NCBI GenBank assembly: GCA_026708565.1
Contig: JAPOUR010000059.1
Span: 24,814 to 88,813 of the forward strand
Direction: 5' to 3'
Origin: Candidatus Dadabacteria bacterium
Lineage (GTDB): Bacteria > Desulfobacterota_D > UBA1144 > Nemesobacterales > Mycalebacteriaceae
DNA: 64,000 nt
In this document: piece by piece, positions 1 to 61,490 of the stretch
Numbering within the stretch: position 1 is the stretch's first letter
How the letters are laid out: every line of letters begins with the position of its first letter
Program-made: the position numbers and the translations under genes
The notes under the pieces: model-generated
Told to the model about the DNA's origin: nothing
The model's input: the letters and a program-made list of their open reading frames with translations, nothing else
The model's database searches: none

Positions 1-1523
1 CCCACCGGCGGAACAGTCAGTATGCAGGCGTTTCTGAGGCCGTTCTCGCGCACCGAATCAAGGACGTCTCCGTCAAGGGTGTCAAGGAACGGGCTTTTGA
101 AGTGCTGCTTTGCGTCGTATGCGGGGAACACCCCTTTCTCGCCCGCGAGTTTGGCGCTGGAGGAGTAAACCGTGTTTTTGATGTGGTTGAAGATATTGTC
201 CGTGAACTCAACGGCTTCATCCGAATCGTAACGTTTGCCGAGTTTGGCGAGCATGTCGCCGAAACCGGTGAAGCCCACGCCTATGCGCCTTGAGCGCCGG
301 GACGCGTCGGTCTGAAAGCCGAGCGGGTGTTTGTGCTCGTTGTAGTCCAGCACGTTGTCAAGAAAACGCACGGAGTATGAAAGCGAGCGGTCAAGGTTTT
401 CCCAGTCAACACGGGCGTCCTTTGTGAACTCGTTCTTGACGAAAAGGCTCATGTTTATGTTGCCGAGACAGCAGTTTCCGTAGTTCTCAAGCGCCTGCTC
501 GCTGCACGGGTTGACGCCTTCAACCTCCATGCCTCCGTATTCGGTGGGTGAGTAGCGTTTCACAGCATCCCAGAAGATGAGGCCCGGCTCCGCCGAAGCC
601 CACGCCGATTTTACAAGCCGCGTCCAGATGTCTCTGGCTTTGACCGTCTTTCTCATCCGCACTTTTTTGTTTTCGTATTCAAGGTCAAAATCCCCGTCCT
701 CTTCCACGGCCTTCATAAACTTGTCCGAAACCTTCACCGATATGTTGGCGAACTTGACCTGAGACCTGTCCGAATCGTTTTTTATGTCAAGAAAACTGAA
801 TATGTCCGGGTGGCTGACGTCTATGGTGATCATCAGCGCTCCTCTTCTGCCCGCCTGCCCGATAGTGCCCGTGGTGGTGGAGAGAAGCTCCATAAAGGAG
901 ACCGCTCCGGTGGAGTGGATTGCCGAGTTGTTTACCGGCGCCCCCTTGGGCCTCAGGGGAGAGATGTCCGTGCCTACGCCGCCGCCGAAGGAGTAGGTCC
1001 TTGCGGCCTCTTTGCACCATTCAAATATCCCCTCTATGGAGTCTTCCTTGATGGGCATAAAGTAGCAGTTAAGCAGTGTTGAGCGGCGCGTCTGCCCGGC
1101 GCCGAACAGGATTCTCCCGCCGGGGATGAAGCGGAAGTTGGAAAGAAGCCAGTAGAACTTCTCCGTCCATTCCTCGCGCAACTCCGGCGTGGTTTCGGGG
1201 GAGGCCATTTCGGAGGCGACCCTTTTCCACATCTCCTGCGGGCGGGTTTCAACTGTGCCGCCTTCTTCGTCTTTCAGGGCGTATTTCTCAAAGAACACCC
1301 TTGCGCGGAGTTCGTCTCCGCCGAATTCTTCAATGGTTTCGGGGGGAAGGTCCCGCCCGCTCTCGTCGGGCTTCTCGGTTACGAGCCTCGGAACTTCGGG
1401 TCTCTCTTCGCCCGAAAAAACGGTATCATTTGAGAGAGACTTCTTGGGAAGTTCAAATATGTTTCCTCTTTCCTCCGTTGCACCGTTTCCGGTCTTGCCC
1501 GTTTCCGTTTTCTCTGATGACAT
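1..1523 (-). CDS. nrdJ: Ribonucleotide reductase, class II (adenosylcobalamin-dependent), N-terminal ~507 aa. The gene continues past the left window edge.
   Basis: Manual minus-strand translation starts at ATG 1523, preceded by RBS GGAGG. Contains 'GVNPCSEQALENYGNCCLGNINMS', matching the class II RNR active-site motif NPC(G/S)E...C.LGSIN. No stop codon before position 1, so the ORF is not in the provided track. Confidence 0.75.
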   Translation of the reverse strand, partial: MSSEKTETGKTGNGATEERGNIFELPKKSLSNDTVFSGEERPEVPRLVTEKPDESGRDLPPETIEEFGGDELRARVFFEKYALKDEEGGTVETRPQEMWKRVASEMASPETTPELREEWTEKFYWLLSNFRFIPGGRILFGAGQTRRSTLLNCYFMPIKEDSIEGIFEWCKEAARTYSFGGGVGTDISPLRPKGAPVNNSAIHSTGAVSFMELLSTTTGTIGQAGRRGALMITIDVSHPDIFSFLDIKNDSDRSQVKFANISVKVSDKFMKAVEEDGDFDLEYENKKVRMRKTVKARDIWTRLVKSAWASAEPGLIFWDAVKRYSPTEYGGMEVEGVNPCSEQALENYGNCCLGNINMSLFVKNEFTKDARVDWENLDRSLSYSVRFLDNVLDYNEHKHPLGFQTDASRRSRRIGVGFTGFGDMLAKLGKRYDSDEAVEFTDNIFNHIKNTVYSSSAKLAGEKGVFPAYDAKQHFKSPFLDTLDGDVLDSVRENGLRNACILTVPPV

Positions 1524-1708
1524 TAGCCTCCTCCAAGCAGTCCAACTACTGTATTTCGTGTTGCAGTGAACTCGTGAACACCAGATATTGTAGTAGCACA
1601 CGGCGGGCAAGTCAAACGGATTTGTGCCTGTTTTATGACAAACAGGGAATTATCCTTTACTGAAAGACAGTAAGCGAGCATAGTTAGAAAGTGTTGGAGG
1701 GCTGTTTT

Positions 1709-2323
1709 ATGCTGAATGACGGATTTGCGCGGCGGATACACCGGTTTTGGTTCGGTGAAATGGGCGAAAACGGGCTTTGCGACCCGGAGTTGATGTCAAA
1801 GTGGTTTGCCGGGGATGAGGGTTTTGACCGTCTTGTTGAGAGGGAGTTCGGCGCTGCTCTCCGGGCGGCGGGCGCGGGAGAGCCGGAGGGCATGTCTCAA
1901 ACGCCACGCGGGGCGCTTGCCTGCATACTTCTCACCGACCAGTTTCCGCGCAACATTCACAGGGGCGTGCCGGAGTCTTTCGCGTTTGACGGCCTGTCTC
2001 TCGCCGTGTGCAGAAGGGGGATGGAAAAGGGGTTTGACAGGTCTCTTTTCCCTATTGAGAGGATTTTCTTTTACATGCCGCTGATGCATTCGGAAAGTTT
2101 TGCGATTCAGAAGATATCGGTTGAAACCTTTTCCTCTCTTGCCGGGGAGTTCAGGGAAGCCCCGGAGGTTTATGAAAGGCTGAAATCATCGGAGGATTTC
2201 GCCCGCAGGCATTTTGAAATTATAGAGAGGTTCGGCAGATACCCGCACAGGAACGGGATACTGGGGAGGGGAAGCACGGAGGAGGAGATTGAGTTTTTGA
2301 AACAGCCGGGGAGTTCGTTTTGA
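1709..2323 (+). CDS. DUF924-family protein (conserved bacterial protein of unknown function)
   Basis: 210-aa ORF ending '...RFGRYPHRNGILGRGSTEEEIEFL', which matches the conserved C-terminal RFGRFPHRN motif of DUF924/COG3803. RBS GGAGGG lies 9 nt upstream of ATG 1709. Confidence 0.5.
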   Translation: MLNDGFARRIHRFWFGEMGENGLCDPELMSKWFAGDEGFDRLVEREFGAALRAAGAGEPEGMSQTPRGALACILLTDQFPRNIHRGVPESFAFDGLSLAVCRRGMEKGFDRSLFPIERIFFYMPLMHSESFAIQKISVETFSSLAGEFREAPEVYERLKSSEDFARRHFEIIERFGRYPHRNGILGRGSTEEEIEFLKQPGSSF

Positions 2324-2363
2324 TGTATTGCTACAAGCCCGAAGTGTTTTGTAGCATACGTGC

Positions 2364-2410
2364 CTGCGCAGAACCCCCTTGGGGTTCTGCGCAGGTGTTT
2401 ACTTTTTCTG
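2364..2410 (+). terminator. Rho-independent terminator
   Basis: Perfect 15-bp stem CCTGCGCAGAACCCC / GGGGTTCTGCGCAGG with a 2-nt loop, followed by the T-rich stretch TGTTTACTTTTTCTG. It lies just downstream of the DUF924 stop codon. Confidence 0.8.
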
Positions 2411-2460
2411 AAGATTGGGTAAAGATTTGAACTTACAACCTTTGCGCAGGAGGTGTTGTT

Positions 2461-2688
2461 ATGGAAAAAGTAGAAAGTGCCGGTGTTCCTATGAAGACGA
2501 AAAGAGAAGCGGGCAAAGCCGATACAATGGAAGAGAAAAGGCAGGAACTGTTAGAAAACATGAGTCTGCAAATCTCTGATGAACTGAAGAACGCCATTGA
2601 TGTTTCTTACAAGTTGTCAAAGAAAAGAGCTCCAAATCCTTTTTTGTCGTTTTCCAGCAGTAGTGACCCAAATGGCGACACTTTCTGA
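2461..2688 (+). CDS. Small hypothetical protein (75 aa) immediately upstream of, and overlapping, the SDH-family protease gene
   Basis: ATG at 2461 is preceded by RBS GGAGG at 7-nt spacing. Lies in an AT-rich island. No recognisable motif. Confidence 0.35.
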   Translation: MEKVESAGVPMKTKREAGKADTMEEKRQELLENMSLQISDELKNAIDVSYKLSKKRAPNPFLSFSSSSDPNGDTF

Positions 2689-3599
2689 TATTCGCAACGA
2701 AGTTGGTAAAAGAAGCCTACCGGATGAGATAAGGCGCATTTATCTCAAGAAACTCGGTGAATACACCAAACGAGATACGGTTGTTTATGCTTCCAGTTTT
2801 TCCTCGCCAAATCCGAACATACCTAGTTCAGCATACTCTATTGAGTTGAATGACCTTCAAGCCTTTATGGCTGTTTTCCATGGCTTGAAGAGAAAAAACT
2901 TGGATATTATTTTGCACAGTCCGGGAGGTTCTTTGGAAGCCGCTGACCAAATAGTGCAATATATTAGGAGAAAGTATGACCACATAAGAGCAATTATTCC
3001 TCAAAACGCCATGTCTGCCGCCACTATGATAGCGTGTGCTGCCGATGAGATTATTATGGGTAAAGAGTCGGCGTTGGGGCCGACAGATCCTTTGCTCAAC
3101 GGAGCGTCAGCCCATGCGGTTTTAAGCGAATTCGCTCAAGCGAGGAGTGAAGTTATTAAAGATCCGAAAACTGCTCCAATATGGGTTTCAAGAATAGCAA
3201 ACTGGCCACCGGGTTTTTTTGGACAGTTGTCAGAAAGCATTGGATCTGTCTCAGGAGAAAGTTTTCGAATGGCTGTCAAACTATATGTTTAAGGGTGAAA
3301 ACAATGATAAGCCTCGGGAAATTGCAAAGTGGCTTGCTGATGCCAGACAGCATAAAACCCATGCACGCCCATTGGGTATTGACTTGCTTCAGGAGAAAGG
3401 GTTGAAGGTGATTCCACTGGAGGAAGATCAGGAATTCCAAGAAATCATTTTGTCTGTTTTTCACTCAACTATTGTCACCTTTGAATCAACCTCATGTATA
3501 AAACTTGTGGAAAACCATGAAGGAAAAGGGTCTTTCCTTCAGTTTCGACCGCAAATGCTTATTCCTCCGGTGCAAGGAAATACATCTACGGGCAAGTAG
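2672..3599 (+). pseudogene. SDH-family (Pfam SDH_sah-like), ClpP/crotonase-fold serine protease. The reading frame is split at a T7 homopolymer (3214-3220).
   Basis: ORF 2597-3292 carries 'DIILHSPGGSLEAADQIVQYIRRKYDHIRAIIPQNAMSAATMIACAADEIIMGKESALGPTDP', a ClpP-like catalytic-region signature. The overlapping ORF 3219-3599 (frame +1) encodes the expected C-terminal half, '...KVFEWLSNYMF...HARPLGIDLLQEKGLKVIPLEED...'. Deleting one T from the T7 run fuses the two into a ~309-aa protein. Confidence 0.6.
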
Positions 3600-3653
3600 A
3601 TATTATATCAGAGTGGTTTGAAGTTATTGGACGAAATTGAGCTGGGGTTCATC

Positions 3654-6600
3654 TTAAATTGGGACTATGTGTGAGAATCCGGTTTTCAGATTCCCGTTTT
3701 TGGAAATCAGTTGTTTGATTTTTCCCAGTCTTGATTTGCGTCTTTTCCACAGTTCTTTTTCATTTTCATTCTCTTGCAGATAAGCAATGAGCCCCACAAT
3801 AAGAGATGCCTGAATGTCCGCGTCTGAAATATGTCCGCAAAACGGACATGTGAAAACGGGTTGATTTCCCCGTTTTTCTTTGAATTCCCCGGCTTCCCTC
3901 CGGTTTTGAAATACGGGGTTCTTTCCCGCCAGATTTTCAACGGGCTGCCGTGAAAAGTTTTTTACGGCATTGATGGCTTCCCTTCCGGTCATCGTATTGC
4001 CGGATTGTTTTGAAATTCCGTTTATGTCGTGTTTTCCAATCTTGATTTTACAAAAGCCGTCTTTTTCGTATGTAACCGGAAAACTATCTTTTTCCCGTTC
4101 CCGCGTTATGTGCGCGTATATGCTTTCACCGCAGGAACTGCATATATTGCTTGTGGCGTATGCGTCAATCTCTTTTCCGGGGGCTTTGGCAGTTCCCCAT
4201 ACAAGTTTGCGCTCATCTTTGTCGGCTTTAATTTCCTGTCTTTTGTTGCGAATGTCGGCGCGTTTGACCGACTTGTAAACTTTGGAAACCTTTTTTGAAG
4301 AGTTATATGGTTCAAACGCGCTTGTCTGCTCTTCGTAAATCGTTGCCGCCTTGTAGCGCACGGCGATGTCGTGAATCCGGTTTCTCAAAGCGCCTATGGC
4401 GTTTTCCCTTATGTCGGCGAGTTTCGTGGAGGATTCTCTGAACATTCCGGTTCGTTGCCGCGTTTTCCCGTGTCTGATGGTTTCTCTTATCTTTCCGAGG
4501 GACGGGTGGGAGATAAAGCCCTGTTTTACAATTTTGAGTTTGGGTTTTGTCTCAAGAACAGTGTATCCGAGACCGTATTCCCCCGTGTCAATTCCGAGCA
4601 GCCGTTTGGGTTTTGTTTCCTCCCCGCCCGATATTTCAAAGGGAATGGAGACAAACACCCTTTCATCGGAAAACATCTTAAGCGAGGGCTTGAAGCCGTC
4701 CTCCGTCTTTTCCCATTCAACAGCCAGTTTTCTTTCGGCGATTAAAGAATGGTCGCCGGGCTTCATTGTGATGCCGCCTTTCGGGTTTACGGACTTTTCA
4801 AGAAACTGTGTCTGATATTTTGAAGATCTGATTGGAAAACTTATTGAATTCCCCTCCGCATCCTTTGTTTCTATAAACCATCTCTTTTTGTCGCCGTTGT
4901 GGATGAGGGGGAAACTTTTCTTCAGGTTTTCAAACTGAACGGTCGCCCGCACTATGTATTGTTCCTGTGTCATACGGCTCAGAGTTCCCCTTAATTCGGA
5001 GCAGATGATTGTGTTAATGAAAGTTCCCAACTGCCCGCCTTTCAACTTGCCGCCTTTTGCAAACGCTTTTATAAACGGCGCGGCTTTATAGAAGTCCTTT
5101 TTTATATGCGGGGGTATGGACGCGGAAATGTCGGGTTGAAGGTGTATAACACATGCGGCTCTTGCTTTTTCAACCTCAACCGCGTCAAGAAGTTCGTGTA
5201 TGGCGTTTTTGAAACCGCCTTTCATTTTGAATATGCCGTTCCAGTCGGGTTGCAGATTTTTAACAAGCCCCTCAATCAACGGGAGGGGGTTTTTCCCCTT
5301 GATGTTTGCGGAAAGGTCTTTGCCCGACCATCTTCGTTGCGAGTTCACGCCCTTTCCCCGGATGAAATAGTCTTTTTCGCCGCAGTCGTGCAGATCAATC
5401 TTTGCCGCTTTGAGAACCGCGTTTCTCACCACTCCGGCAAACCTTGCGGTGTTCATTGAGCCGTTTCTCAGGGTGGCGTCTTTTTCTTTCTGTTTGCCGT
5501 ATATTCTCTTGAGAGAGTTCAAACGCCCAAGCAGAAACTCTTCATCTTCCTGCGCGGGCTTGCGTCCGCCGCTTTCCGGGGTTTTCAGGGTTTCCGCCAG
5601 AAATTCAGTTCCGGCTTTTAGACGCTCCCATGAGTCCGCGTATTTTTTATACATTTCCTTTGCGGTTTCTCCGGGAAATGCCGGTATCTTGCGCAGGTCG
5701 GAGTGAATGCTCTTGTATGCGTGCGCCGCCGTTTCATACTTCGCTTTTTTATTGTTGGTGTCGCTTTCCTGATACCGGCGGTTCAGTTCGGAGCGGAATC
5801 TTCCCATCAGGTCGTCGTAGAAATTCAATTCCTCGTGAGGCGAGTCTTCCATTTTACCCCTCAACCCAACGGCAAGGTTTTCCAGTTTTTGAAGGTGTTC
5901 CATATACTCTTTGGACAGGGGAAACTCTCCCGCTTCAATGTCTTTTCTTATTTCCTTGAAATCCTCAATGTGTTTTTCAATCTGCTCTTCTATTTTTCCT
6001 TTCTGTGTTTCAATGTTTGACACATAAGATTTGATCTTGCCCATTTGAAGACGGTATATCCTCCATTCGGCAAGTTCGGGGCGGTCGGCAAGTTTTTTCG
6101 CGCATTGGGAGAGTTTATCCAGACGCTTCTCAAGTTCTTTTTCTTTACCTTTCCAAACGGGGGCGGCTTTGAGAATGTCCGCTTTAATTTCTCCGGTTTT
6201 CCCTTCGCGCAGCCTTTTGAGTTGCGCTCCGAGGTAGTTTGACTGGGAATTGTATTCGGAATCAAGACCCATGCGATCCTTGTATTTTTCTCCGAACATG
6301 TTTTGAATCGTATTCATCAGGTCTTTGATGTCGGCTTCCCGATTCGCCGGAATGTCGGGATGAGGGCAAAAAGTCAGATTTGTTTCCATATCTGTTTCGG
6401 ATAACAGGTTGCGATTGATGCCGTATTTTTTTAGCAGAATGTTATGTTTTTCTTCCTTGCCTTTTCCTATCAGGCTTTTTATTGTGAAACAAAACTCTTT
6501 TGCGTTGCCGTCTATGGTTTCTTCTTTTTCCAGTTTGAAAATCTCTTTCATTTCTGCTTCAACTTTACCTTTGGTCTTGTTGCTTCTGAATTCTCTTGGC

Positions 6601-7004
6601 AGGACGACATATCCCATGAGTTTGTCCCAATCTTTGACCAGATTGGAAAAATCAGGGTTTGTTTTTTGGACTTGCCTTTTAATGCTCTCTTTAATGTCAG
6701 GATTGAACCGGTCAATCAGTTCCGCGGCGTTTGGGAAGAAAACCACTCCCGCCCGCAGTGAATCACGCCAGAAATCAAAAAGCGAATAGGGATGTTTTTC
6801 CTTTTCCTTGTTTTTTATCCAGTCGTTTATGTTGAAGTCGCCGACAATCGCCTGATAATCGCTGAAAATATGGTCGGCGAGGTTTTTCAGATGTTTTTTG
6901 TTTTTGCAATCAATTGGGTATTTTACGGCGCGTGTCGCTTTTCCGCCGGAAAAATCTATCCGTTTGAGATGAAGACTGTATCCGGTGAGTCCTTTATATT
7001 TCAT
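3654..7004 (-). CDS. cas12: Type V CRISPR effector, Cas12 family (1116 aa). Subtype unassigned.
   Basis: - RuvC-I: 'RLLGIDTGEYGLGYTVLE' (Asp ~806, nt 4587-4589).
- RuvC-II: 'AVRYKAATIYEEQTSAF' (Glu ~891).
- Zn-finger: CxxC...CxxC ('CSSCGES' and 'CPFCGH'), inserted before RuvC-III.
- RuvC-III: 'SDADIQASLIVGLIAY' (Asp ~1061/1063, nt ~3816-3824).
- The gene sits immediately downstream of, and co-oriented with, a CRISPR array.
- It is AT-rich relative to its flanks. Confidence 0.85.
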   Translation of the reverse strand: MKYKGLTGYSLHLKRIDFSGGKATRAVKYPIDCKNKKHLKNLADHIFSDYQAIVGDFNINDWIKNKEKEKHPYSLFDFWRDSLRAGVVFFPNAAELIDRFNPDIKESIKRQVQKTNPDFSNLVKDWDKLMGYVVLPREFRSNKTKGKVEAEMKEIFKLEKEETIDGNAKEFCFTIKSLIGKGKEEKHNILLKKYGINRNLLSETDMETNLTFCPHPDIPANREADIKDLMNTIQNMFGEKYKDRMGLDSEYNSQSNYLGAQLKRLREGKTGEIKADILKAAPVWKGKEKELEKRLDKLSQCAKKLADRPELAEWRIYRLQMGKIKSYVSNIETQKGKIEEQIEKHIEDFKEIRKDIEAGEFPLSKEYMEHLQKLENLAVGLRGKMEDSPHEELNFYDDLMGRFRSELNRRYQESDTNNKKAKYETAAHAYKSIHSDLRKIPAFPGETAKEMYKKYADSWERLKAGTEFLAETLKTPESGGRKPAQEDEEFLLGRLNSLKRIYGKQKEKDATLRNGSMNTARFAGVVRNAVLKAAKIDLHDCGEKDYFIRGKGVNSQRRWSGKDLSANIKGKNPLPLIEGLVKNLQPDWNGIFKMKGGFKNAIHELLDAVEVEKARAACVIHLQPDISASIPPHIKKDFYKAAPFIKAFAKGGKLKGGQLGTFINTIICSELRGTLSRMTQEQYIVRATVQFENLKKSFPLIHNGDKKRWFIETKDAEGNSISFPIRSSKYQTQFLEKSVNPKGGITMKPGDHSLIAERKLAVEWEKTEDGFKPSLKMFSDERVFVSIPFEISGGEETKPKRLLGIDTGEYGLGYTVLETKPKLKIVKQGFISHPSLGKIRETIRHGKTRQRTGMFRESSTKLADIRENAIGALRNRIHDIAVRYKAATIYEEQTSAFEPYNSSKKVSKVYKSVKRADIRNKRQEIKADKDERKLVWGTAKAPGKEIDAYATSNICSSCGESIYAHITREREKDSFPVTYEKDGFCKIKIGKHDINGISKQSGNTMTGREAINAVKNFSRQPVENLAGKNPVFQNRREAGEFKEKRGNQPVFTCPFCGHISDADIQASLIVGLIAYLQENENEKELWKRRKSRLGKIKQLISKNGNLKTGFSHIVPI

Positions 7005-7094
7005 TATCCTGTCAGTTAATCAAAAAACGGGAAAAGAACAACCGGACGGGTTGAGGCAAAACAGAATCTATAAAGATTTCTGAGAAGAACCGTT

Positions 7095-7311
7095 AAAAGG
7101 GCATTGTCCAACGAGACGCAGGTCTTTCGCGTCCTGTGTTAGGTCTCACATCCCCCTTGTTTAAGGGTATCGTCCAACTTGCCTTCCACTCTTGAACCAT
7201 TCCGGGGCGCCTCACATCCCCCTTGTTTAAGGGTATCGTCCAACACTTGATGGCAGAAATAGAAGGCGACAACGGCCTCACATCCCCCTTGTTTAAGGGT
7301 ATCGTCCAACT
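7095..7311 (-). CRISPR. Minimal CRISPR array with three perfect 36-nt repeats plus one degenerate terminal repeat, and 30-31-nt spacers
   Basis: Repeat G[T/C]CTCACATCCCCCTTGTTTAAGGGTATCGTCCAAC is found at 7144-7179, 7210-7245 and 7276-7311 with a 66-nt period. A degenerate copy (…AAAAGGGCATTGTCCAAC) lies at ~7095-7112. The repeat contains the hairpin CCCTT-GTTT-AAGGG. Strand is inferred from the position of the degenerate (trailer) repeat next to cas12 and the AT-rich putative leader at 7312-7490. Confidence 0.8.
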
Positions 7312-7496
7312 GAAAGACCCGGAGACTTTCATCAACTCCTTATTGTTCAGGGGATTTTCCGGTTTTCTTTCCCGTTATTTGACTTTCAAAGAACAAAAAA
7401 GCGAAGATTTCATACCGTCCCCGCTCTTTATTCCGTAAAATAGTATGAAGTAAGCCCGCATTGTCAAGACACAAGCGCGGCTGAACGGACTTGTCA

Positions 7497-7910
7497 ATGA
7501 AAACCCTTGCTCTTGATGTCGGAACGAAAACCATCGGCGTTGCCGTGAGCGATGAACTGGGCATCACGGCAAACGGCCTTGGGGTTGTCCGGCGGACGGA
7601 TGAAAAAAACGACCTGCAATCCCTCGCGGCTTTGATAAACGAACACAAGCCGGGGCGCATTGTGGTCGGAATCCCGTTTAACGCGGACGGCTCTCTCGGA
7701 GAGCGGGCGAGGGCGATAAAAGACTTTTCCGAAACGGTTTCCCGGACTTTCGGAATAAAGACGGTTCTGTGGGATGAAAGTTTCTCCACCAAAGAGGCGG
7801 AAAAAGCGCTAATCGGCGGCGGAATGGGCAGAAAGAAAAGAAAAAAAGTTGTTGATAAGGTCGCCGCAACGGTCATACTGCGGGAATATCTGGACAGCGC
7901 GGAGGGATAA
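7497..7910 (+). CDS. ruvX: Holliday-junction resolvase-like / pre-16S rRNA nuclease YqgF (RuvX)
   Basis: 'MKTLALDVGTKTIGVAVSD' is the N-terminal RuvX signature. Length is ~138 aa. Confidence 0.85.
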   Translation: MKTLALDVGTKTIGVAVSDELGITANGLGVVRRTDEKNDLQSLAALINEHKPGRIVVGIPFNADGSLGERARAIKDFSETVSRTFGIKTVLWDESFSTKEAEKALIGGGMGRKKRKKVVDKVAATVILREYLDSAEG

Positions 7911-7911
7911 T

Positions 7912-8703
7912 ATGCCGATTGCCAAAGTGAACGGGGTGAACATTAACTACGAGGAACACGGCTCTGGAAAGCCGGTTTTCCTCATCGGAGGGCTCGGAAG
8001 CACAATATCAAGCTGGGACGACCAAATACCGGTTTACTCAAAACACTTCAAAGTCATAGTGTTTGACAACAGAGGGTCGGGCCTCTCAAGCAAACCGACC
8101 GCCCCGTATTCCACACGGGACATGGCGGACGACACAGTCGCCCTTGCCGATTTTCTGGGGATTGAAAAGGCGTCTTTTGCGGGCAAGTCCATGGGCGGAA
8201 TGATAGCGCAGTGGATAGGCATCAACCATCCCGAAAGAGTCCGGCGGCTGGTTATGGGCTGCTCAACCGCCCACAGGGACGAGGTCGGAAACCTGATACT
8301 TGAAACGGGCAGGCAAATATCCGAAAAGGCGGGCATGGGGCCCGTGTGGCTCACCGCGCTTTTCCTCGGCTACGGCAGGCAATACATTGAAGACAATCTC
8401 ACCGCCATCAAAGAGCGCCTCGCCGGTGTGCAAACCACACCCGAAGACATTGCGGGATACCACGGCCAGTGCGCGGCGTGCGAAGGGCATGAAACCGCCG
8501 GGCTTCTTCCACGTATTAAGTCGCCCTCTCTTGTTATGTTCGGGACGGAAGACAACGTTACCGACCCGAAGCGGGCGGCGGAGGTGGGGGAACTCATACC
8601 GGACGCGACCGTCCGCGCGTTTGAAGGCTGCGGGCACGGATTCTGGCGCGAAAAAAGAGAGGAAGTGGACGCCCTTGTGGTTGACTTTCTCTCAAGCGGG
8701 TAG
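7912..8703 (+). CDS. Alpha/beta-fold hydrolase
   Basis: 'VFLIGGLGSTISSW', nucleophile elbow 'GKSMGG', and a C-terminal 'GCGHGFW'. Confidence 0.8.
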   Translation: MPIAKVNGVNINYEEHGSGKPVFLIGGLGSTISSWDDQIPVYSKHFKVIVFDNRGSGLSSKPTAPYSTRDMADDTVALADFLGIEKASFAGKSMGGMIAQWIGINHPERVRRLVMGCSTAHRDEVGNLILETGRQISEKAGMGPVWLTALFLGYGRQYIEDNLTAIKERLAGVQTTPEDIAGYHGQCAACEGHETAGLLPRIKSPSLVMFGTEDNVTDPKRAAEVGELIPDATVRAFEGCGHGFWREKREEVDALVVDFLSSG

Positions 8704-8734
8704 TATCTACTTATAACAGCGGGGACTTTAGACA

Positions 8735-9163
8735 ATGATTCTCAAACACCTTTTTGCAACTTCGGGATACGCGCCCCTCATAGCGCGGGTGACTCTGGGA
8801 GTCGTGATTTTTCCGCACGGCTTCCTGAAAATTATAGAGTTTGACCAGAGTATGGCGAGCCTCACCACCTGGGCCGGATTGCCGTCCGTGGTGGCGTTTC
8901 TGGTGATAATAGGGGAATCGCTGGGCGCGGTTTCCCTGATAGTGGGCTTTCTGTCGCGTTTCTGCGCGCTGTCAATAGGCATCATAATGACGGGAGTGAT
9001 GATGATGCACCTCCAGCACGGGTTTTTTATGAACTGGCGCGGAAATCAGGCGGGCGAGGGGATTGAATACACCCTTCTCGCCATCGGTCTTGCGCTTGCG
9101 GTTACCGTTTCGGGCGGCGGCTACCTATCCGTTGACAGGCTGATAGCGCGCGCCCGCCTTTAG
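8735..9163 (+). CDS. DoxX-family membrane protein
   Basis: 142-aa hydrophobic protein with a DoxX-like topology and the N-terminal pattern 'LIARVTLGVVIFPHGFLKI'. Confidence 0.6.
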   Translation: MILKHLFATSGYAPLIARVTLGVVIFPHGFLKIIEFDQSMASLTTWAGLPSVVAFLVIIGESLGAVSLIVGFLSRFCALSIGIIMTGVMMMHLQHGFFMNWRGNQAGEGIEYTLLAIGLALAVTVSGGGYLSVDRLIARARL

Positions 9164-9169
9164 AACCCC

Positions 9170-9487
9170 TTATTCCTTTTCGGCGAGGGTCTTCTCAAGT
9201 TCCCCGTTGTGGAACATCTCCTCGCAAATGTCGCAACCGCCCACAAAGTTGCCGTCCACGTAAAGCTGGGGAATGGTGGGCCAGTTTGAAAAATCCTTTA
9301 TCCCCTGCCTTATTGCCTCGTCCCGCAGCACGTCAACAGTTTCGTAGGAAACCCCCAGCGCGTTCAGTATCTGCACCACGCGGGCGGAAAAACCGCACTG
9401 CGGCATATCCCTGCTTCCCTTCATGTATAGAAGAACGCGGTTGCCCTCCACTTGCGATTTGATTGTGCTTATTATGTCTCCTGCCAT
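9170..9487 (-). CDS. grxD: Monothiol glutaredoxin (Grx4/GrxD family)
   Basis: 'CGFS' active site and '[19 protein letters not shown]'. Confidence 0.9.
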
Positions 9488-9488
9488 T

Positions 9489-9722
9489 TTATCCTCCGTA
9501 TTGCCCCGGTGTGTAGGTTTTGATTGAAAGGGCGTGTATCTCCTCTCTCATTGCGTCTCCGAGCGCGGCGTAAACCATCTTGTGCCTCTCAACCGGCGTT
9601 TTGCCCTCAAATTCGCCTGATACCACGACCGCCTCAAAGTGCGCTCCGTCATCGCCGCTGACCTCAACATGGGAGGCGTTGATTGATTTTTCTATGGCGG
9701 ACTTGATGTTTTCCGGGCTCAC
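9489..9722 (-). CDS. bolA: BolA-family protein
   Basis: 77 aa with a BolA-like 'HF...VVS..F.G...V.RH' pattern. Forms the classic bolA-grx pair. Confidence 0.8.
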
Positions 9723-9782
9723 GGGTGGTATTATCTATTGACCGGGGCGGGATTGTCAACATTTCCGCTCCGGGCGGAAGCC

Positions 9783-10223
9783 ATGCTTGTTTCTAAAATA
9801 ATGTCGGAATCGCCCCGGACCATAAGCCGGGACGCCACCATAGAGGACGCGGCGCGCGCAATGACCGAGCGCTCCGTCAGCTGCCTGCCGGTTGTGGACG
9901 GGGACGGCAATGTGGTCGGGCTGATATCCGAAAGCGATTTCATCGGCAGGATGAGCGCCGTCCCGTTTTCCAGAGAGGAGCGGCACTCGCTGTTCGGCAT
10001 CTGGACTGAAACCCGCGACATCACAAAGGCGTGCCGGGCGGCGGCGGGGCTGAGCCTGAAGGAGTTTATGCGGACGCCGGTCATCGCCGTCGCCCCGGAC
10101 GATACCGTTGAGCGGGCGGTGGAAATGATGCTCAAGCACCGCGTCCGCCGCCTGCCCGTGGTCAAAGACGGAAAGCCCGTGGGCGTGCTTTGCAGGAGAG
10201 ACCTGCTGAAGGTCTTTCTGTAG
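9783..10223 (+). CDS. CBS-domain pair protein
   Basis: Two CBS motifs ('CLPVVDGDGNVVGLISESDF' and 'RRLPVVKDGKPVGVLCRRDLL'). Confidence 0.8.
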   Translation: MLVSKIMSESPRTISRDATIEDAARAMTERSVSCLPVVDGDGNVVGLISESDFIGRMSAVPFSREERHSLFGIWTETRDITKACRAAAGLSLKEFMRTPVIAVAPDDTVERAVEMMLKHRVRRLPVVKDGKPVGVLCRRDLLKVFL

Positions 10224-10242
10224 TTCCGGCGGGAGCGGCCGC

Positions 10243-11638
10243 GGTGTATCCCAGAGTTGTAATAGCGGGCGAGCGGAGCGGATGCGGGAAAACGACCGTT
10301 TCCCTCGCCGTAATGTCCGCCCTGTCCGCGCGCGGGCTCACCGTTCAGGGTTTCAAAACCGGGCCAGACTACATAGACCCGTCCCACTACGAAGCCAGAA
10401 CGGGCAGAAAGGGCAGAAACATAGATTTGTGGATGACAGAGCCGCAAGACTGCCTTGAACTGTTTTTGAAAAACTCATCGGGCGCTCACATCTCGGTTAT
10501 AGAGGGGGTTATGGGGCTGTATGACGGAGCGCGCCCGGACGGCAGGGCGTCCGCCGCCCATACGGCGAAATTCCTCCGCGCCCCCGTGATACTGGTGCTG
10601 GACGGCATGCGCGGCCCCTCGTCCGCCGCCGCGACCGCGCTGGGGCTCAAGATGTTTGACCCGGAGGTGAACATAGCCGGGTTTATTCTCAACCGCGCCG
10701 CGCCTGCGGACGCGGCGCGCGCGGCGCGCGCGGTTGCCGCCGCGACCGGCATTTCCTATCTGGGCTTTCTTCCCCCGGACGGAGATCTGGAGACCCCGTT
10801 CAGACACCTTGGGCTTGTGCCCGCCAACGAAGCCCCGCCCGGCGGGCGGAAACTGGAGGCCGAGCGTCTCGCCGCAAGCCGTCTTGACATGGGGCTTATT
10901 GAGAAAATTGCCCGCTCCGCCCCCGCCCCGCCCCCGGCGCAAAGCCGTCTTTTTCCCCCCTCGCCCCGCCCGCAGCGCGCCCGCCTCGCCGTCGCCCGCG
11001 ACAAGGCGTTTTCCTTTTACTACGAAGACACCCTTGACCTGCTCTCCCTCTGGGGCTGCGAGGTCGCGCCGTTTTCCCCGGTGTCGGAAGAGCGGCTGCC
11101 CGAAGGGGCGGACGCCCTTTACATAGGCGGCGGGTTTCCCGAGGTTTACTGTGAGGAACTTGAGGCCAACAGCCCGATGAGGGAGGCCGTGAGGGATTTC
11201 TGCCTCTCCGGCGGCGCGGTTTACGCCGAATGCGGCGGGATGATGTATCTGGGCTCAAGCATCACCGATTTGCGCGGACGCGATTTTGAAATGTGCGGCG
11301 CGGTCGGCGGGGGTTTTCTCATGCGCGGCAAACTCCAGTCCATCGGCTACAGAGAGGTGGTCGCGTCCGGAGACGCGGGGTTTTTCCGCCGTGGCGACAC
11401 CGAAAGGGGGCATGAGTTCCACTACTCGTCCGCCGCCGGAGACGCGGGCGGGTTTTTCAACGTTACAAACTCTGCGGGCGACCGCTCCGGGGCGGGCGTG
11501 CGCCTTTGCAACACGGTTGCCTCATACGTCCACCTGAGCCTTGTTTCATCCGGAATTGCCGCCCGCGCCGCCGACCGAATCAAACCCGAAGCGGGCGAGC
11601 CTGAAGCAGGCAAACCTGAAGCGGGGGCGTGCGGGTGA
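10243..11638 (+). CDS. cbiA: Cobyrinate a,c-diamide synthase (CbiA/CobB)
   Basis: 'RVVIAGERSGCGKTTVSLAVMSAL', '...GFKTGPDYIDPSHY', and a C-terminal glutamine amidotransferase region. Confidence 0.85.
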
Positions 11639-12702
11639 GTTTTGTTCCGCGCGCCGCGCCGCCCTTTCACGGCGGGCTTGACCACGGGGAGATAAGAGCC
11701 CTCGGCCTTGACCCGCTTGAAATCGCCGATTTTTCAAGCAACCTGAACCCGTTTTTCCCGTCTTCAGAACTGCTCGCGGGCGCGTGCGCCGGTTCGTCCG
11801 CCTATCCCGATGCCGGATACTCGGAGCTTCGCGCCACCATAGCCCGTTTTCACGGGGCCAGCGCAGACTGTGTTTTCGCCGGAAACGGCGCGTCCGAGAT
11901 AGTTCACCTGCTCTGCCGCTGCCTCAGGGGGGGGGAGACCGTTCTGGTGGCCGTGCCGACTTTTTCCGAATACGAAAGGGCGGCGTTGATTTGCGGGGCG
12001 CGCGTTGTCCGGTGCGCCGCCGGAAAAGATTTGCGTTTCAACCCGTCCGCGCTTGTCCGCGCCATAAAACGCCACCGCCCGGCGCTTGTTTTTCTCTGCA
12101 ACCCGAACAACCCCACGGGGTTGCTTATGCCGGACGGCGGCACGGAGGAGGTCGCCCGCGAGGCGGGGGGCGCGGTGCTGGTTATAGACGAGTCGTATGC
12201 GGACTTCACGGAGCGGCGGTGCGATTCAACCCCGCTTGCCGCCCGTGGCGGCGCGGTTGTCATCCGCTCGCTCACGAAGTTTTTCGGCCTCGCGGGCGTC
12301 AGGATGGGCTATGCGGTTTCAAGCCCCCGGATAACCGCCGCGCTGAACAGCGTCCGCCCGCCGTGGAACGTCAACTCGGTTGCCTGCCGCGCGGCGGAAA
12401 AGGTGTTTTCTCTTCCGCCGTCCGCTCGCGAAGAGAGCCGCCGCCGCCTTTTTGCCGCAAGAGACCGCCTCATAAAACGGCTTGCCGGGGCGGGCAAAAC
12501 GTGCCTTCCCACGGACACGGGGTTTTTCCTCGTCAAGCAGCCTGACGCGCGCGGCACAAGAGACCGGCTTCTCAAAAAAGGGGTCGCCGTGCGGGACTGC
12601 GCCTCTTTCGGGCTGCCGTCCCACATACGCATAAGCGCGATGCCGGAGCGGGATTGTGAAAAACTTCTCAAGGCATGGGCGGAGGCGGACGGTGAAGGCT
12701 AA
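11629..12702 (+). CDS. cobD: Threonine-phosphate decarboxylase CobD (class I/II aminotransferase fold)
   Basis: 'SSNLNPFFPS...AYPDAGYSELRATIARFHG' is CobD/HisC-like. It has a GTG start overlapping the cbiA stop, and lies between cbiA and cobQ. Confidence 0.75.
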   Translation: MRVSFVPRAAPPFHGGLDHGEIRALGLDPLEIADFSSNLNPFFPSSELLAGACAGSSAYPDAGYSELRATIARFHGASADCVFAGNGASEIVHLLCRCLRGGETVLVAVPTFSEYERAALICGARVVRCAAGKDLRFNPSALVRAIKRHRPALVFLCNPNNPTGLLMPDGGTEEVAREAGGAVLVIDESYADFTERRCDSTPLAARGGAVVIRSLTKFFGLAGVRMGYAVSSPRITAALNSVRPPWNVNSVACRAAEKVFSLPPSAREESRRRLFAARDRLIKRLAGAGKTCLPTDTGFFLVKQPDARGTRDRLLKKGVAVRDCASFGLPSHIRISAMPERDCEKLLKAWAEADGEG

Positions 12703-46869: not shown

Positions 46870-46916
46870 AATGAAAGCACATACAAATTTCATCAGTCAA
46901 GGGATGGGTTCAGATT

Positions 46917-47111
46917 ATGGTCAAACGACAGAGAAGTGAAAAAAGAATCATCTATTCCATCAATGTGGAAGATATTCAGACTGTTGCGGACGAAGTTTTG
47001 AAAAGGCCGTTAACAGAAGCAGAAATTGCGAAAATAGAGGACGCTGTTGGAGAAAACGTCTCTTGGTTTGATGCAATTGAACAGGCTATGATTGATAACA
47101 AATTAGTTTGA
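46917..47111 (+). CDS. Small hypothetical protein (64 aa) downstream of the HNH nuclease
   Basis: RBS AAGGGA is 8 nt upstream of ATG. The gene is AT-rich and has the same orientation as the HNH gene. No recognisable motif. Confidence 0.4.
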   Translation: MVKRQRSEKRIIYSINVEDIQTVADEVLKRPLTEAEIAKIEDAVGENVSWFDAIEQAMIDNKLV

Positions 47112-47338
47112 TTGATGCCCTGCTTCCGCTTATTTCTTTCCCTCAAACGCCGCTTCTTCCCGTATGGTACTCCCCCGACCGGTTCTCCCAAGTAAAGCGT
47201 CTCTCCCTTCTCAACCGCCACACACTCGCCGAGTCCAGCGTGTTTCTCAAACTCGCTATCATCCTCGCAGAAATAAACCTTCCTTCAACTGTGGCAACAT
47301 CGTAAAATAGTCTTGACCATTTTACGACATTGCTTAAA

Positions 47339-48553: not shown

Positions 48554-48591
48554 CGGGGTTTCGCTCCCGCAGTTTTCAATAAGCCTCCCGC

Positions 48592-60329: not shown

Positions 60330-60439
60330 TGCAATCCCGTAAAGCCCGCTTTGTGGGCGGGGGCTTTAAGTATAGGGGGAAGGGGGGATTATGCAAGAGG
60401 GACGCTACAGATTATAATATGGGAAACGGAGGAGTTGAG

Positions 60440-61444: not shown

Positions 61445-61490
61445 GTCGTATATGTCATTTTCAGTTGCTGGACACCTTGCCTATGCTTCG

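What the first reader, a model, noticed from the sequence alone, without database searches (positions are those of the whole stretch)
3654..7004. Stand-alone Cas12-family (type V) effector of 1116 aa with no adaptation module
The protein shows the complete split-RuvC architecture of Cas12 nucleases:
- RuvC-I 'GIDTGEYGLG'.
- RuvC-II '…ATIYEEQ…'.
- A CxxC…CxxC zinc finger in the Nuc/TNB insert.
- RuvC-III 'SDADIQASLIVGL'.

It is encoded directly downstream of a co-oriented CRISPR array. No cas1, cas2 or cas4 is present within 3.6 kb on one side or tens of kb on the other.

Size and locus organisation (effector plus a short array only) recall compact subtypes such as V-I or degenerate V-B. The N-terminal ~790 aa and the repeat sequence do not let me assign a known subtype by inspection. 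It may be a divergent or new branch of type V.

The locus is AT-rich relative to the genome, which suggests horizontal acquisition.
Basis: partly seen in the sequence, partly recalled or inferred. Interest (0 to 1): 0.9.

Follow-up and report, generated by a model that had tools for sequence, protein, structure and literature searches.

The report
Cas12d cassette with atypical long array
This is a known kind of CRISPR nuclease gene (Cas12d/CasY, type V-D), already labelled as such in GenBank and carried on a recently acquired 5-kb cassette in a Dadabacteria chromosome; it is unusual only in lacking the family's own spacer-integrating enzyme and in having an array of 36-nt repeats and 30-nt spacers instead of the family's usual 25/18-nt format.

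Summary
A 1116-aa ORF lies at 3654-7004 (-), with the quoted RuvC and zinc-finger motifs, just downstream of a co-oriented mini-array. No cas1, cas2 or cas4 was found in the parts of the 64 kb checked.

The "unknown or new subtype" reading does not hold. The protein scores 1001 bits on NCBIfam's Cas12d/CasY equivalog (cutoff 250). It is identical to GenBank MCY4047870.1, "Cas12d [Candidatus Dadabacteria bacterium]". In a tree it sits inside the Cas12d radiation.

Four findings go beyond the annotation:
- **Cassette.** The gene sits in a 5155-bp, 45%-GC cassette (2322-7476). A strain about 99% identical in both flanks lacks it.
- **Array format.** All 50 arrays beside Cas12d relatives have a 42-46-nt period, and most of those loci have an adjacent Cas1. 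This array has a 66-nt period (36+30) and no Cas1.
- **scoutRNA.** The best whole-window match to a scoutRNA model, whose seed includes the experimentally active KbCas12d scoutRNA, lies at 7095-7044. Its dock, GCCUCA, pairs with this repeat's altered 3' end, UGAGGC.
- **Selection.** dN/dS is 0.32 against an 89%-identical allele that carries a different spacer.

Verdict: a probably functional type V-D interference module whose spacers were likely integrated by a different integrase. It is a new variant of a known kind.

The parts
2322..7476 (.). Strain-variable, low-GC cassette (5155 bp, GC 0.449) that carries the whole Cas12d locus. It lies between DUF924 (1709-2323, +) and ruvX (7497-7910, +).
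   Evidence: L080, a 1.2-Mb contig from ERZ21788732, is 99.3% identical to window 1-2321 and 98.7% identical to 7477-12000. In between it has only 751 bp holding one unrelated 236-aa ORF.
3654..7004 (-). cas12d (casY), 1116 aa. RuvC residues D806, E891 and D1063; zinc finger C955, C958, C1053 and C1056.
   Evidence: NCBIfam Cas12d equivalog, 1001.6 bits against a cutoff of 250. PADLOC Cas12d E = 1.5e-149. Identical to MCY4047870.1. Catalytic columns are conserved in 47-50 of 50 sequences. D806 and E891 align to D828 and E914 of the 1125-aa KbCas12d-type protein P0015. dN/dS is 0.32 against the L003 allele.
7044..7095 (-). Candidate scoutRNA: UAACGGUUCUUCUCAGAAAUCUUUAUAGAUUCUGUUUUGCCUCAACCCGUCC. 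It has an outer helix ACGGUU/AA(C)CCGU, an inner hairpin CAGAA(A)UCU-UUAU-AGAUUCUG, and a single-stranded dock GCCUCA.
   Evidence: It is the top hit in the whole window with covariance model R3, which was built from 10 canonical scoutRNAs without this sequence: 16.5 bits, E = 0.074. With R2 the E-value is 4e-4 when the search is limited to the array-to-gene gap. It occupies the same position as the scoutRNA in canonical loci. One R3 seed, L054 123-168, is identical to the experimentally active KbCas12d scoutRNA 1. The dock is complementary to the repeat's 3' end, UGAGGC.
7077..7112 (-). Degenerate terminal repeat (GTTGGACAATGCCCTTTTAACGG...) whose 3' part runs into the 5' strand of the scoutRNA outer helix.
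   Evidence: Sequence. The same element is conserved in the 89% relative L003. The KbCas12d locus L054 likewise has a degenerate last repeat running into its scoutRNA.
7113..7310 (-). CRISPR array: R1 7310-7275, S1 7274-7245, R2 7244-7209, S2 7208-7179, R3 7178-7143 (ends GAGAC instead of GAGGC), S3 7142-7113. The repeat is GTTGGACGATACCCTTAAACAAGGGGGATGTGAGGC (36 nt) and the spacers are 30 nt.
   Evidence: Other assemblies of the same locus carry S1+S3 (L001) or S3 only (L002). The 89% relative has a different 30-nt spacer.
7311..7476 (-). Leader, with a sigma-70-like promoter (TTGACA-16-TACTAT at 7467-7440) pointing into the array.
   Evidence: The promoter scan found 10 of 12 matches; 3 promoter-like sites were found in the region against 3.8 expected from shuffles. 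The region lies inside the cassette, because homology to the empty-site strain resumes at 7477. Function is inferred only.
2461..3599 (+). Cargo genes that travel with cas12d: a 75-aa ORF (2461-2688) and a ClpP-like SDH/NfeD-type serine protease gene (2672-3599) that is frameshifted in this window.
   Evidence: Pfam PF01972 and PF25145. The gene is an intact 308 aa in L003, whereas the window switches reading frame after about codon 185. Neither gene has a PADLOC hit.

Best explanation
This is a type V-D CRISPR interference module consisting of a Cas12d effector, a scoutRNA and a mini CRISPR array. It was acquired horizontally as a 5.2-kb cassette at a strain-variable site of a Dadabacteria chromosome.

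**Proposed mechanism**
1. A promoter in the cassette's leader transcribes the array and the scoutRNA that follows it (inferred).
2. The scoutRNA dock GCCUCA pairs with the UGAGGC end of each repeat. Cas12d binds the scoutRNA:crRNA pair and trims the crRNA 3' end. This step is inferred from what is reported for V-C and V-D systems.
3. The complex cuts complementary DNA with the RuvC site D806/E891/D1063 (inferred; the residues are shown to be conserved).

**How it differs from other Cas12d loci**
- The family's Cas1-only integrase is absent.
- The array has 36-nt repeats and 30-nt spacers.
- The spacers were therefore most likely integrated by a conventional integrase encoded elsewhere, acting in trans or in a former host. 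This step is inferred and not shown.

Confidence by part: about 0.95 that it is Cas12d, about 0.7 that the module is functional, and about 0.35 for trans-adaptation.
For: **Family**
- NCBIfam Cas12d equivalog at 1001.6 bits against a cutoff of 250. PADLOC Cas12d E = 1.5e-149. The GenBank name is Cas12d.
- All 28 of its nearest relatives also match the Cas12d model.
- It is nested in the Cas12d tree, with 100% and 77% bootstrap for the enclosing nodes.

**Active site**
- D806, E891, D1063 and the four Cys are conserved in 47-50 of 50 sequences.
- D806 and E891 align with D828 and E914 of the KbCas12d-type protein.
- D827A and E913A abolish KbCas12d cleavage (bioRxiv 10.1101/2023.12.12.571249).

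**Selection**
- dN/dS is 0.32 (bootstrap 95% interval 0.25-0.41) against the 89% allele, and the indels between them are all in-frame.

**scoutRNA**
- Helices of the canonical element covary: 95% of cells paired, and 11 of 13 pairs show double changes.
- One seed of the model equals the active KbCas12d scoutRNA 1.
- The model's best hit in the 64 kb is at 7095-7044 (-), exactly between the array and cas12d.
- Canonical loci pair a GCCUU dock with an AAGGC repeat end. Here both sides have changed, to GCCUC and GAGGC.

**Array format and Cas1**
- All 50 arrays next to relatives have a 42-46-nt period.
- A V-D Cas1 is found in 31 of 36 genome loci and 24 of 35 metagenome loci, but not in the window.

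**Horizontal acquisition**
- An empty site exists in a strain about 99% identical in the flanks. Cassette GC is 0.449 against 0.565 for the rest of the window.

**Spacer turnover**
- Assemblies differ by exact 66-nt units.
- The 89% relative carries a different 30-nt spacer.
Against: - **No expression or activity data exist for this locus.**
- **The scoutRNA call is not significant on its own.** Window-wide E-values are 0.074 with R3 and 0.19 with R2, where an antisense site inside cas12d scored higher. The single-sequence model R1 missed it, and nhmmer gave E = 0.29.
- **The scoutRNA outer helix is imperfect.** It needs a 1-nt bulge, and it competes with a terminator-like hairpin at 7053-7039.
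- **The repeat resembles canonical repeats only weakly.** Its profile score is 3.6 bits against 16-32 for family members, with P about 0.01 against shuffles of the repeat. About 80 window positions score as well.
- **The array is tiny.** R3 carries a G-to-A change in the anchor, and the neighbouring protease gene is frameshifted. Both fit decay.
- **No protospacer was found**.
- **No integrase was found.** Trans-adaptation therefore rests only on the repeat and spacer lengths.
- **Spacer differences between assemblies could partly be assembly collapse.** This applies especially to the Logan contig L002.
Confidence: 0.7

Rival explanations
1. Orphan remnant. The cassette is a decaying V-D locus that lost cas1. 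The array is frozen memory, and the effector is no longer useful and is on its way out.
For: - No Cas1 in the window.
- Only 1-3 spacers.
- R3's anchor is mutated to GAGAC.
- The adjacent protease gene is frameshifted.
- The cassette is absent from a strain about 99% identical in the flanks.
- No protospacers were found.
Against: - The 1116-aa ORF is intact with all catalytic and zinc ligands.
- dN/dS is 0.32, with an upper bound of 0.41.
- The scoutRNA dock and the repeat anchor changed together, which implies selection on their pairing after divergence from canonical loci.
- Loss of cas1 alone does not explain the format. A canonical array cannot turn into 36+30 by decay, so these spacers must have been integrated by something.
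- Two alleles carry different spacers.
Confidence: 0.2
2. New type V subtype: a branch distinct from Cas12a-n whose N-terminal part has no known relatives.
For: - Only about 26-33% identity to any relative outside its own 89% pair.
- The array format is unlike other V-D loci.
- No solved Cas12d structure turned up by sequence search; the only hit was Cas12c2 at E = 1.6e-4.
Against: - Full-length match to the Cas12d equivalog at four times the curated cutoff, including the N-terminal 700 aa.
- Identities of 25-35% are the norm inside Cas12d.
- The protein is nested within the family in the tree.
- It scores higher on the family model than bona fide members such as P0005 (789 bits) and P0130 (358 bits).
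Confidence: 0.03
3. The array is not Cas12d's. It is a leftover of another CRISPR type that merely sits next to cas12d, and Cas12d has no cognate guides here.
For: - A 36+30 format is typical of many type I, II and V-A arrays (background knowledge) and was never seen with Cas12d in 50 arrays.
- The repeat scores poorly on the canonical repeat profile.
Against: - The array lies inside the same cassette as cas12d.
- It is co-oriented with the gene and has the same order as the KbCas12d locus: array, then a degenerate repeat fused to the scoutRNA, then cas12d.
- The best repeat-profile placement is flush with the 3' end in the correct orientation.
- The scoutRNA-like element's dock is a 6-nt complement of this repeat's 3' end, not of the canonical AAGGC.
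- The arrangement is conserved in the 89% relative.
Confidence: 0.05
4. Non-defence use. The mini-array guides Cas12d to host or symbiont targets for regulation rather than immunity.
For: - Very short array and no adaptation genes.
- Cas12c, the sister family, has been reported to repress transcription, with varying reports of cis-DNA cleavage (table in PMC11127173).
Against: - The RuvC triad is intact.
- No spacer has a match with 8 or fewer mismatches elsewhere in the 64 kb.
- Spacers differ between strains, which fits immunity rather than a fixed regulatory target.
Confidence: 0.03

Closest known systems
KbCas12d / CasY.1 and other type V-D systems (Burstein et al. 2017 and Harrington et al. 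2020, cited from the papers read)
   Same: - Full-length homologous effector of about 1100-1250 aa with the same RuvC triad and zinc finger.
- Same gene order: array, then a degenerate last repeat running into the scoutRNA, then cas12d.
- A scoutRNA-like element with the same two-helix layout and a short dock complementary to the repeat's 3' end.
- crRNA polarity is repeat-5', spacer-3', as in the published KbCas12d crRNA.
   Different: - No adjacent Cas1. It is found at 31 of 36 genome loci and 24 of 35 metagenome loci of relatives.
- Repeat 36 nt against 25-26 nt, and spacer 30 nt against 17-19 nt.
- Anchor and dock are GAGGC/GCCUC instead of the otherwise invariant AAGGC/GCCUU.
- The motif 5' of the inner hairpin is CUUCU instead of UUCC.
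- The host is labelled Dadabacteria rather than Candidate Phyla Radiation.
- Only 26-33% protein identity.
Cas12c (type V-C), e.g. Cas12c2, PDB 7v93
   Same: - Related RuvC region (PDB phmmer E = 1.6e-4 over residues 799-919; NCBIfam Cas12c 63 bits).
- Also uses a short-complementarity scoutRNA/tracrRNA and ruler-type 3' processing (PMC9522604).
   Different: - The match is confined to the C-terminal RuvC part and falls below the Cas12c cutoff of 250.
- The N-terminal 700 aa match Cas12d only.
- V-C systems also carry a Cas1 without Cas2 (PMC6977970).
Type V loci that lack an adaptation module, such as V-I, V-H and Cas-delta
   Same: Effector plus array only. The Cas-delta paper proposes dependence on coexisting systems for adaptation (PMC12721324).
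   Different: - No sequence relationship: no Cas12i, Cas12h or Cas12b model matched at E <= 1.
- V-I, V-H and Cas-delta effectors use crRNA alone (table in PMC11127173; PMC12721324), whereas this locus keeps a scoutRNA-like element.

Membership tests
Type V-D (Cas12d/CasY) | The effector matches the Cas12d family profile over its full length, above the curated threshold | tested here: met
   NF033951.2 equivalog E = 7e-301, 1001.6 bits against a cutoff of 250; best stretch residues 6-704 against profile positions 1-734 of 1180, in two stretches. PADLOC Cas12d E = 1.5e-149. Nested in the family tree.
Type V-D (Cas12d/CasY) | Single split RuvC active site (D...E...D) with a CxxC...CxxC zinc finger in the insert | tested here: met
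   D806, E891, D1063 and C955, C958, C1053, C1056 are conserved in 47-50 of 50 Cas12d sequences. They align to D828 and E914 of the KbCas12d-type protein, whose D827A and E913A mutants are dead. Catalysis itself was not tested.
Type V-D (Cas12d/CasY) | A scoutRNA with a 3-5-nt dock complementary to the crRNA repeat, encoded in the locus | tested here: inconclusive
   The candidate at 7095-7044 (-) is the best whole-window hit of model R3 (16.5 bits, E = 0.074). With R2, E is 4e-4 within the array-to-gene gap. Position, two-helix layout and a 6-nt dock complement of the repeat end all fit. However, it is not significant window-wide, was missed by R1, and its outer helix is imperfect. Expression was not tested.
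Type V-D (Cas12d/CasY) | An adjacent cas1 without cas2 (Cas1-only integrase) | tested here: not met
   tblastn with V-D Cas1 found nothing in the 64 kb, although it found Cas1 in 31 of 36 genome loci and 24 of 35 metagenome loci of relatives. There is no Cas Pfam in the neighbourhood annotations. The rest of the genome was not searchable.
Type V-D (Cas12d/CasY) | Compact array: 25-26-nt repeats ending AAGGC and 17-19-nt spacers | tested here: not met
   The window has a 36-nt repeat ending GAGGC and 30-nt spacers, giving a 66-nt period. All 50 arrays beside relatives have a 42-46-nt period, and all 25 repeat consensuses derived from them end AAGGC. The literature gives the same format.
Type V-D (Cas12d/CasY) | scoutRNA-dependent dsDNA cleavage with a 5'-TR PAM and collateral ssDNA cleavage | not testable with these tools
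   Needs biochemistry. No protospacers were found from which to infer a PAM.
Type V-C (Cas12c) | The effector matches the Cas12c profile above threshold | tested here: not met
   NF033950 scores 63.3 bits against a cutoff of 250, and only over residues 796-915.
   No Cas12i or Cas12b model appears among NCBIfam or PADLOC matches at E <= 1. The only others listed are Cas12c, and Cas12u3 and Cas12f at E > 0.05 on the zinc-finger stretch.

The most novel reading that the evidence does not exclude
A Cas12d lineage that left the Candidate Phyla Radiation has dropped the family's Cas1-only mini-integrase. Its array is now built by a conventional Cas1-Cas2 integrase acting in trans, which would explain the jump from 25/18-nt to 36/30-nt repeat and spacer units. 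The effector, the scoutRNA dock and the repeat anchor co-evolved to keep working, and the enzyme may use or tolerate guides longer than 18 nt. This would be a natural case of a class 2 effector switching adaptation partner and array format.
Probability: 0.35. Interest if true: 0.6.

Novelty: new variant of a known kind. Interest (0 to 1): 0.4.

Why it matters
**Biology**
- Type V-D and V-C are the textbook cases of a minimal CRISPR system in which a Cas1-only integrase, short repeats and 17-19-nt spacers travel together with the effector.
- This cassette shows the interference half (Cas12d plus scoutRNA) decoupled from that adaptation half and attached to a normal-sized array, in a bacterium outside the Candidate Phyla Radiation.
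- If the module works, it shows that array format is set by the integrase and not by the effector. It would also be a concrete case of cross-system adaptation and of gene flow from CPR-type loci into other phyla.

**Practical use**
- The analysis gives a directly testable guide design: the 52-nt scoutRNA plus a crRNA made of the 36-nt, or 3'-most 26-nt, repeat followed by a spacer.
- This is a Cas12d orthologue that naturally carries 30-nt spacers.

**Limits**
- The enzyme family, its chemistry and its RNA requirement are already known, and the gene is already correctly annotated in GenBank.

Tried and rejected
**Searches and tests that gave nothing useful**
- **Loose structural descriptor.** A home-made descriptor (outer stem, hairpin, dock, outer stem) matched 62 of 201 GCCTC sites in the window, so it was abandoned as non-specific.
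- **nhmmer.** A profile of the scoutRNA plus 5'UTR of five canonical loci put its best hit at the right place (7058-6996), but only at E = 0.29.
- **Single-sequence model R1.** It did not find the window element.
- **MAFFT alignments of scoutRNAs.** They had register slips. A seed was obtained by iterating covariance-model searches instead. One mistyped alignment call failed.
- **Rfam.** It has no scoutRNA family; only tRNAs were reported in the window and in six canonical loci.
- **Repeat profile.** Scoring the window repeat on a profile of canonical repeats gave only weak support.
- **Close relatives in JGI metagenomes.** None was found with peptide patterns from this protein.
- **Mobile-element collections.** No Cas12d relative was found in IMG/VR, PLSDB plasmids or GenBank phages.
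- **Protospacers and repeat.** Exact 23-24-mers of the four known spacers and of the repeat core gave no IMG/VR match. No spacer has a match with 8 or fewer mismatches elsewhere in the window.
- **Solved structures.** Only Cas12c2 was found by sequence.
- **Literature.** The Harrington 2020 and Wright 2019 papers are not held. No paper mentions the run accessions. No paper surfaced on long-spacer Cas12d or on Cas12d in Dadabacteria.
- **Failed look-ups.** One gene look-up failed on start-codon choice and one family scan exceeded the size limit.

**Ideas considered and rejected**
- The 360-bp gap downstream of cas12d encodes an RNA. It is the frameshifted 3' part of the protease gene.
- The leader encodes the scoutRNA. 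It contains no dock sequence.

**Not attempted**
- Structure prediction. Only four sequences were eligible as an alignment, and the family assignment did not depend on it.

Full report
**1. The observation**

The ORF is at 3654-7004 on the minus strand and encodes 1116 aa. The quoted motifs are at the stated places:
- GIDTGEYGLG from residue 804, giving D806.
- ATIYEEQ from 887, giving E891.
- CSSC at 955 and CPFC at 1053.
- SDADIQASLIVGL from 1060, giving D1063.

Immediately upstream on the same strand are three copies of a 36-nt repeat, GTTGGACGATACCCTTAAACAAGGGGGATGTGAGGC. They have a 66-nt period and separate three 30-nt spacers. A degenerate fourth repeat follows at 7112. A 34-nt repeat core gave 3 matches in the window and none in 100 shuffles.

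**2. What the protein is**

- NCBIfam's Cas12d/CasY equivalog NF033951 matches at E = 7e-301, 1001.6 bits against a curated cutoff of 250.
- PADLOC's Cas12d models give E = 1.5e-149.
- Cas12c reaches only 63 bits, on the RuvC part. No Cas12b or Cas12i model appears.
- The exact sequence is in GenBank as MCY4047870.1, [quoted passage not shown]. The neighbouring RuvX and the GroEL on the same 101-kb contig carry the same organism label.
- An exhaustive HMMER search found 245 cluster representatives. One is 90% identical and the rest are 27-45% identical over the matched stretches. Full-length alignment to 26 of the closest gave 26-33% identity. All 28 aligned members, and even the weakest hits checked, are Cas12d by the same model.
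- In an NJ tree of 50 sequences the window protein and its 89% relative form a long branch nested inside the family. Bootstrap is 100% for the ingroup and 77% for the next enclosing node. The exact sister group is unresolved.
- D806, E891, D1063 and the four zinc-finger cysteines are conserved in 47-50 of 50 sequences.
- D806 and E891 align with D828 and E914 of the 1125-aa KbCas12d-type protein P0015. D827A and E913A abolish KbCas12d cleavage (bioRxiv 10.1101/2023.12.12.571249). The numbering differs by one, and I take these to be the same residues.
- The only solved relative found by sequence is Cas12c2, PDB 7v93.

**3. Context: a recently acquired cassette**

The flanks are chromosomal housekeeping genes: cobalamin synthesis, ruvX, ribonucleotide reductase, ATP synthase, GroES/EL and ribosomal proteins.

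A 1.2-Mb contig from another sample (L080) is 99.3% identical to window 1-2321 and 98.7% identical to 7477-12000. Between DUF924 and ruvX it has only 751 bp, holding one unrelated 236-aa ORF. The window has 5155 bp there. The cassette spans 2322-7476, with GC 0.449 against 0.565 for the rest of the window. On the cas12d strand it reads, in order:
- a leader with a sigma-70-like promoter at 7467-7440;
- the array;
- a scoutRNA-like element;
- cas12d;
- on the other strand, a ClpP-like SDH/NfeD protease gene and a 75-aa ORF.

The protease gene is frameshifted here but intact in the 89% relative L003. No relative of the protein was found in IMG/VR, PLSDB or GenBank phages, so the vector is unknown.

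**4. How the locus differs from every other Cas12d locus examined**

I fetched 36 loci from GTDB species genomes and 35 from JGI metagenomes.
- All 50 arrays found beside these relatives have a 42-46-nt period. A few are the same locus seen in both collections.
- The 25 repeat consensuses derived from them are 25-26 nt long and end in AAGGC. This matches the published format of 26-nt repeats and 17-19-nt spacers.
- A conserved Cas1, 44-81% identical to the query Cas1 among the genome loci, lies next to the array in 31 of 36 genome loci and 24 of 35 metagenome loci. Most of the remaining loci are short or truncated contigs.

The window has a 66-nt period (36+30) and no Cas1 by tblastn in 64 kb. 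No Cas family appears in the Pfam annotation of about 60 kb of it. The 89% relative has the same repeat type, a 30-nt spacer and the same degenerate terminal repeat, so the format is stable in this lineage.

V-C and V-D systems lack cas2, and a V-C Cas1 alone integrates spacers (PMC6977970). From my own knowledge, that mini-integrase is what goes with the short format. Because the window protein is nested among canonical loci, loss of cas1 and the long format are derived traits.

**5. Is the array Cas12d's own? The scoutRNA test**

Cas12c and Cas12d need a scoutRNA whose 3-5-nt dock pairs with the repeat "anchor" next to the spacer. They trim the crRNA 3' end by a ruler mechanism (PMC9522604; PMC11127173).

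Every canonical locus I examined has a conserved element just upstream of cas12d. It consists of an outer helix, a UUCC motif, an inner hairpin and the sequence GCCUU, which is complementary to the AAGGC repeat end. One of these, L054 123-168, is identical to "scoutRNA 1", the 44-nt minimal RNA that supports KbCas12d cleavage in vitro (supplement of the bioRxiv paper). The element I modelled is therefore the real scoutRNA.

I iterated covariance models from one sequence (R1), to six (R2), to ten (R3), never including the window. On the ten-sequence alignment 95% of cells pair, and 11 of 13 pairs show changes on both sides. That alignment was fitted to the model, which inflates these figures.

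Search results in the window, both strands, filters off:

| Model or method | Result |
|---|---|
| R3 | Best hit in the whole window is 7095-7044 (-), 16.5 bits, E = 0.074 |
| R2, whole window | The same site is second, 14.0 bits, E = 0.19; an antisense site inside cas12d scored higher |
| R2, limited to the 138-bp array-to-gene gap | E = 4e-4 |
| R1 | Missed the site |
| nhmmer profile | Best hit at the right place, E = 0.29 |

The hit lies exactly between the array and cas12d. The element reads UAACGGUU-CUUCU-CAGAAAUCU-UUAU-AGAUUCUG-UUUU-GCCUCA-ACCCGU. Its dock, GCCUCA, is complementary to the last six bases of this repeat, UGAGGC. Canonical loci pair GCCUU with AAGGC, so both partners have changed together here. 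As in the KbCas12d locus, the degenerate last repeat runs into the 5' strand of the scoutRNA.

Weak points:
- The window-wide E-values are not significant.
- The outer helix needs a bulge and competes with a terminator-like hairpin at 7053-7039.
- The repeat scores only 3.6 bits on a profile of canonical repeats. Its best placement is flush with the 3' end in the right orientation, with P about 0.01 against shuffles.

I therefore treat the scoutRNA as probable, not proven.

**6. Is the module alive?**

- Between the window allele and the 89% allele, dN/dS is 0.32 (bootstrap 95% interval 0.25-0.41). The indels between them are all in-frame.
- Three assemblies of the identical locus carry S1+S2+S3 (window), S1+S3 (L001, a k141 contig) and S3 only (L002, a Logan contig). 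They differ by exact 66-nt units at the leader-proximal side. This fits polarised gain and occasional loss, but assembly collapse cannot be excluded, especially for L002.
- The 89% allele has a different spacer in the last position.
- R3, the oldest repeat, has a G-to-A change in the anchor.
- No protospacers were found.

**7. Mechanism proposed**

Shown:
- family membership;
- conserved active-site residues;
- purifying selection;
- cassette boundaries;
- absence of cas1 in cis;
- the deviant array format;
- the position of a scoutRNA-like element with a matching dock.

Inferred:
- The leader promoter transcribes the array and the scoutRNA.
- The scoutRNA dock pairs with each repeat end.
- Cas12d binds the pair and trims the 3' end. 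If the ruler is unchanged, only about 18 of the 30 spacer nucleotides would be kept.
- The complex then cuts matching DNA through RuvC.

Also inferred, with less confidence: because the V-D integrase goes with 25/18 units, the 36/30 units were made by another integrase, either in trans in this genome or in a previous host.

**8. Verdict**

This is a known, correctly annotated subtype (V-D), not a new branch of type V. It is nevertheless an atypical member. It lies outside the CPR, it is on a strain-variable cassette, it has no Cas1, and it has an array format not seen in 50 other Cas12d arrays, with a co-adapted dock-anchor pair. I found no paper describing this, within the limits of the held library.

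Novelty: new variant of a known kind. Interest: 0.4.

Noticed in passing
window 2672-3599 (+): A ClpP-like SDH/NfeD-type serine protease gene inside the cassette is frameshifted after about codon 185. The 89%-related cassette (L003 3570-4496) has it as an intact 308 aa. With the 75-aa ORF at 2461-2688, it travels with cas12d in both cassettes. Neither has a PADLOC hit.
   Followed up: partly
L080 9241-9951 (-): In the strain about 99% identical in the flanks, the same DUF924-ruvX site holds a different low-GC (0.388) gene of 236 aa with no Pfam or PADLOC match. The site therefore looks like a hotspot for exchangeable cargo.
   Followed up: partly
window 45934-49908: A second low-GC patch (GC about 0.46). 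It holds an HNH_2 nuclease (PADLOC HNH, E = 1.2e-17), an AAA_14/DUF4143 ATPase matching the PADLOC candidate system PDC-S01 (E = 2.9e-56), and a gene of about 430 aa (438-aa ORF 48592-49908; called as 426 aa) with no match. It may be another defence islet.
   Followed up: partly
window 60329-62675: A third low-GC patch (GC about 0.45) with a 334-aa gene without Pfam hits and a Fic-domain gene. A 76-nt-period direct repeat lies at 62694-62797, just beyond it.
   Followed up: no
window 24613-26613: A low-GC stretch (0.467) covering a 666-aa GtrA-like membrane protein gene within a glycosyltransferase cluster.
   Followed up: no
L007, L025, L035, L038, L042, L015, L027, L033 (genome-contig loci): Cas12d loci with canonical 43-44-nt arrays and Cas1 also occur in MAGs labelled Leptonemataceae, Vampirovibrionia/Cyanobacteria, Deltaproteobacteria UBA2409, Propionibacteriaceae and Gammaproteobacteria. 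Either V-D is not confined to the CPR or these contigs are mis-binned.
   Followed up: no
L016, L017, L020, L023, L027, L030-L033, L040, L049, L055 and others, about 30-120 nt upstream of cas12d: A second, longer class of scoutRNA. It starts with GGGUUCCUAACCC, whose GUUCCUAAC is complementary to GUUAGGAAC inside the cognate repeat. That is an anti-repeat much longer than the 3-5-nt dock. It goes with the gene order cas12d-cas1-array.
   Followed up: no
L054 191-3539: This JGI contig carries the KbCas12d (CasY.1) locus, with a scoutRNA and repeat identical to the published ones. Its cas12d reading frame is interrupted after codon 270, from either an assembly error or a natural frameshift.
   Followed up: no
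window 6616-6689 (+): Model R2 scored an antisense site inside cas12d (17.5 bits, E = 0.019) above the intergenic candidate. Its outer helix is broken and it dropped to 9.8 bits with the broader model R3, so it is probably a chance match.
   Followed up: partly
window 7336-7343 (-) and leaders of L008, L010, L011, L022: The leader contains ATAAGGAG. A similar ATAA(A/G)G(A/G)G motif lies about 14 nt upstream of the first repeat in several canonical Cas12d leaders, whereas here it is 25 nt upstream. It may be a conserved leader element or a coincidence.
   Followed up: no
L001 18076-18650 (just outside the window): A HicA-like toxin gene (weak Pfam hit) with an adjacent 114-aa gene lies between the ribonucleotide reductase and ATP synthase genes.
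   Followed up: no
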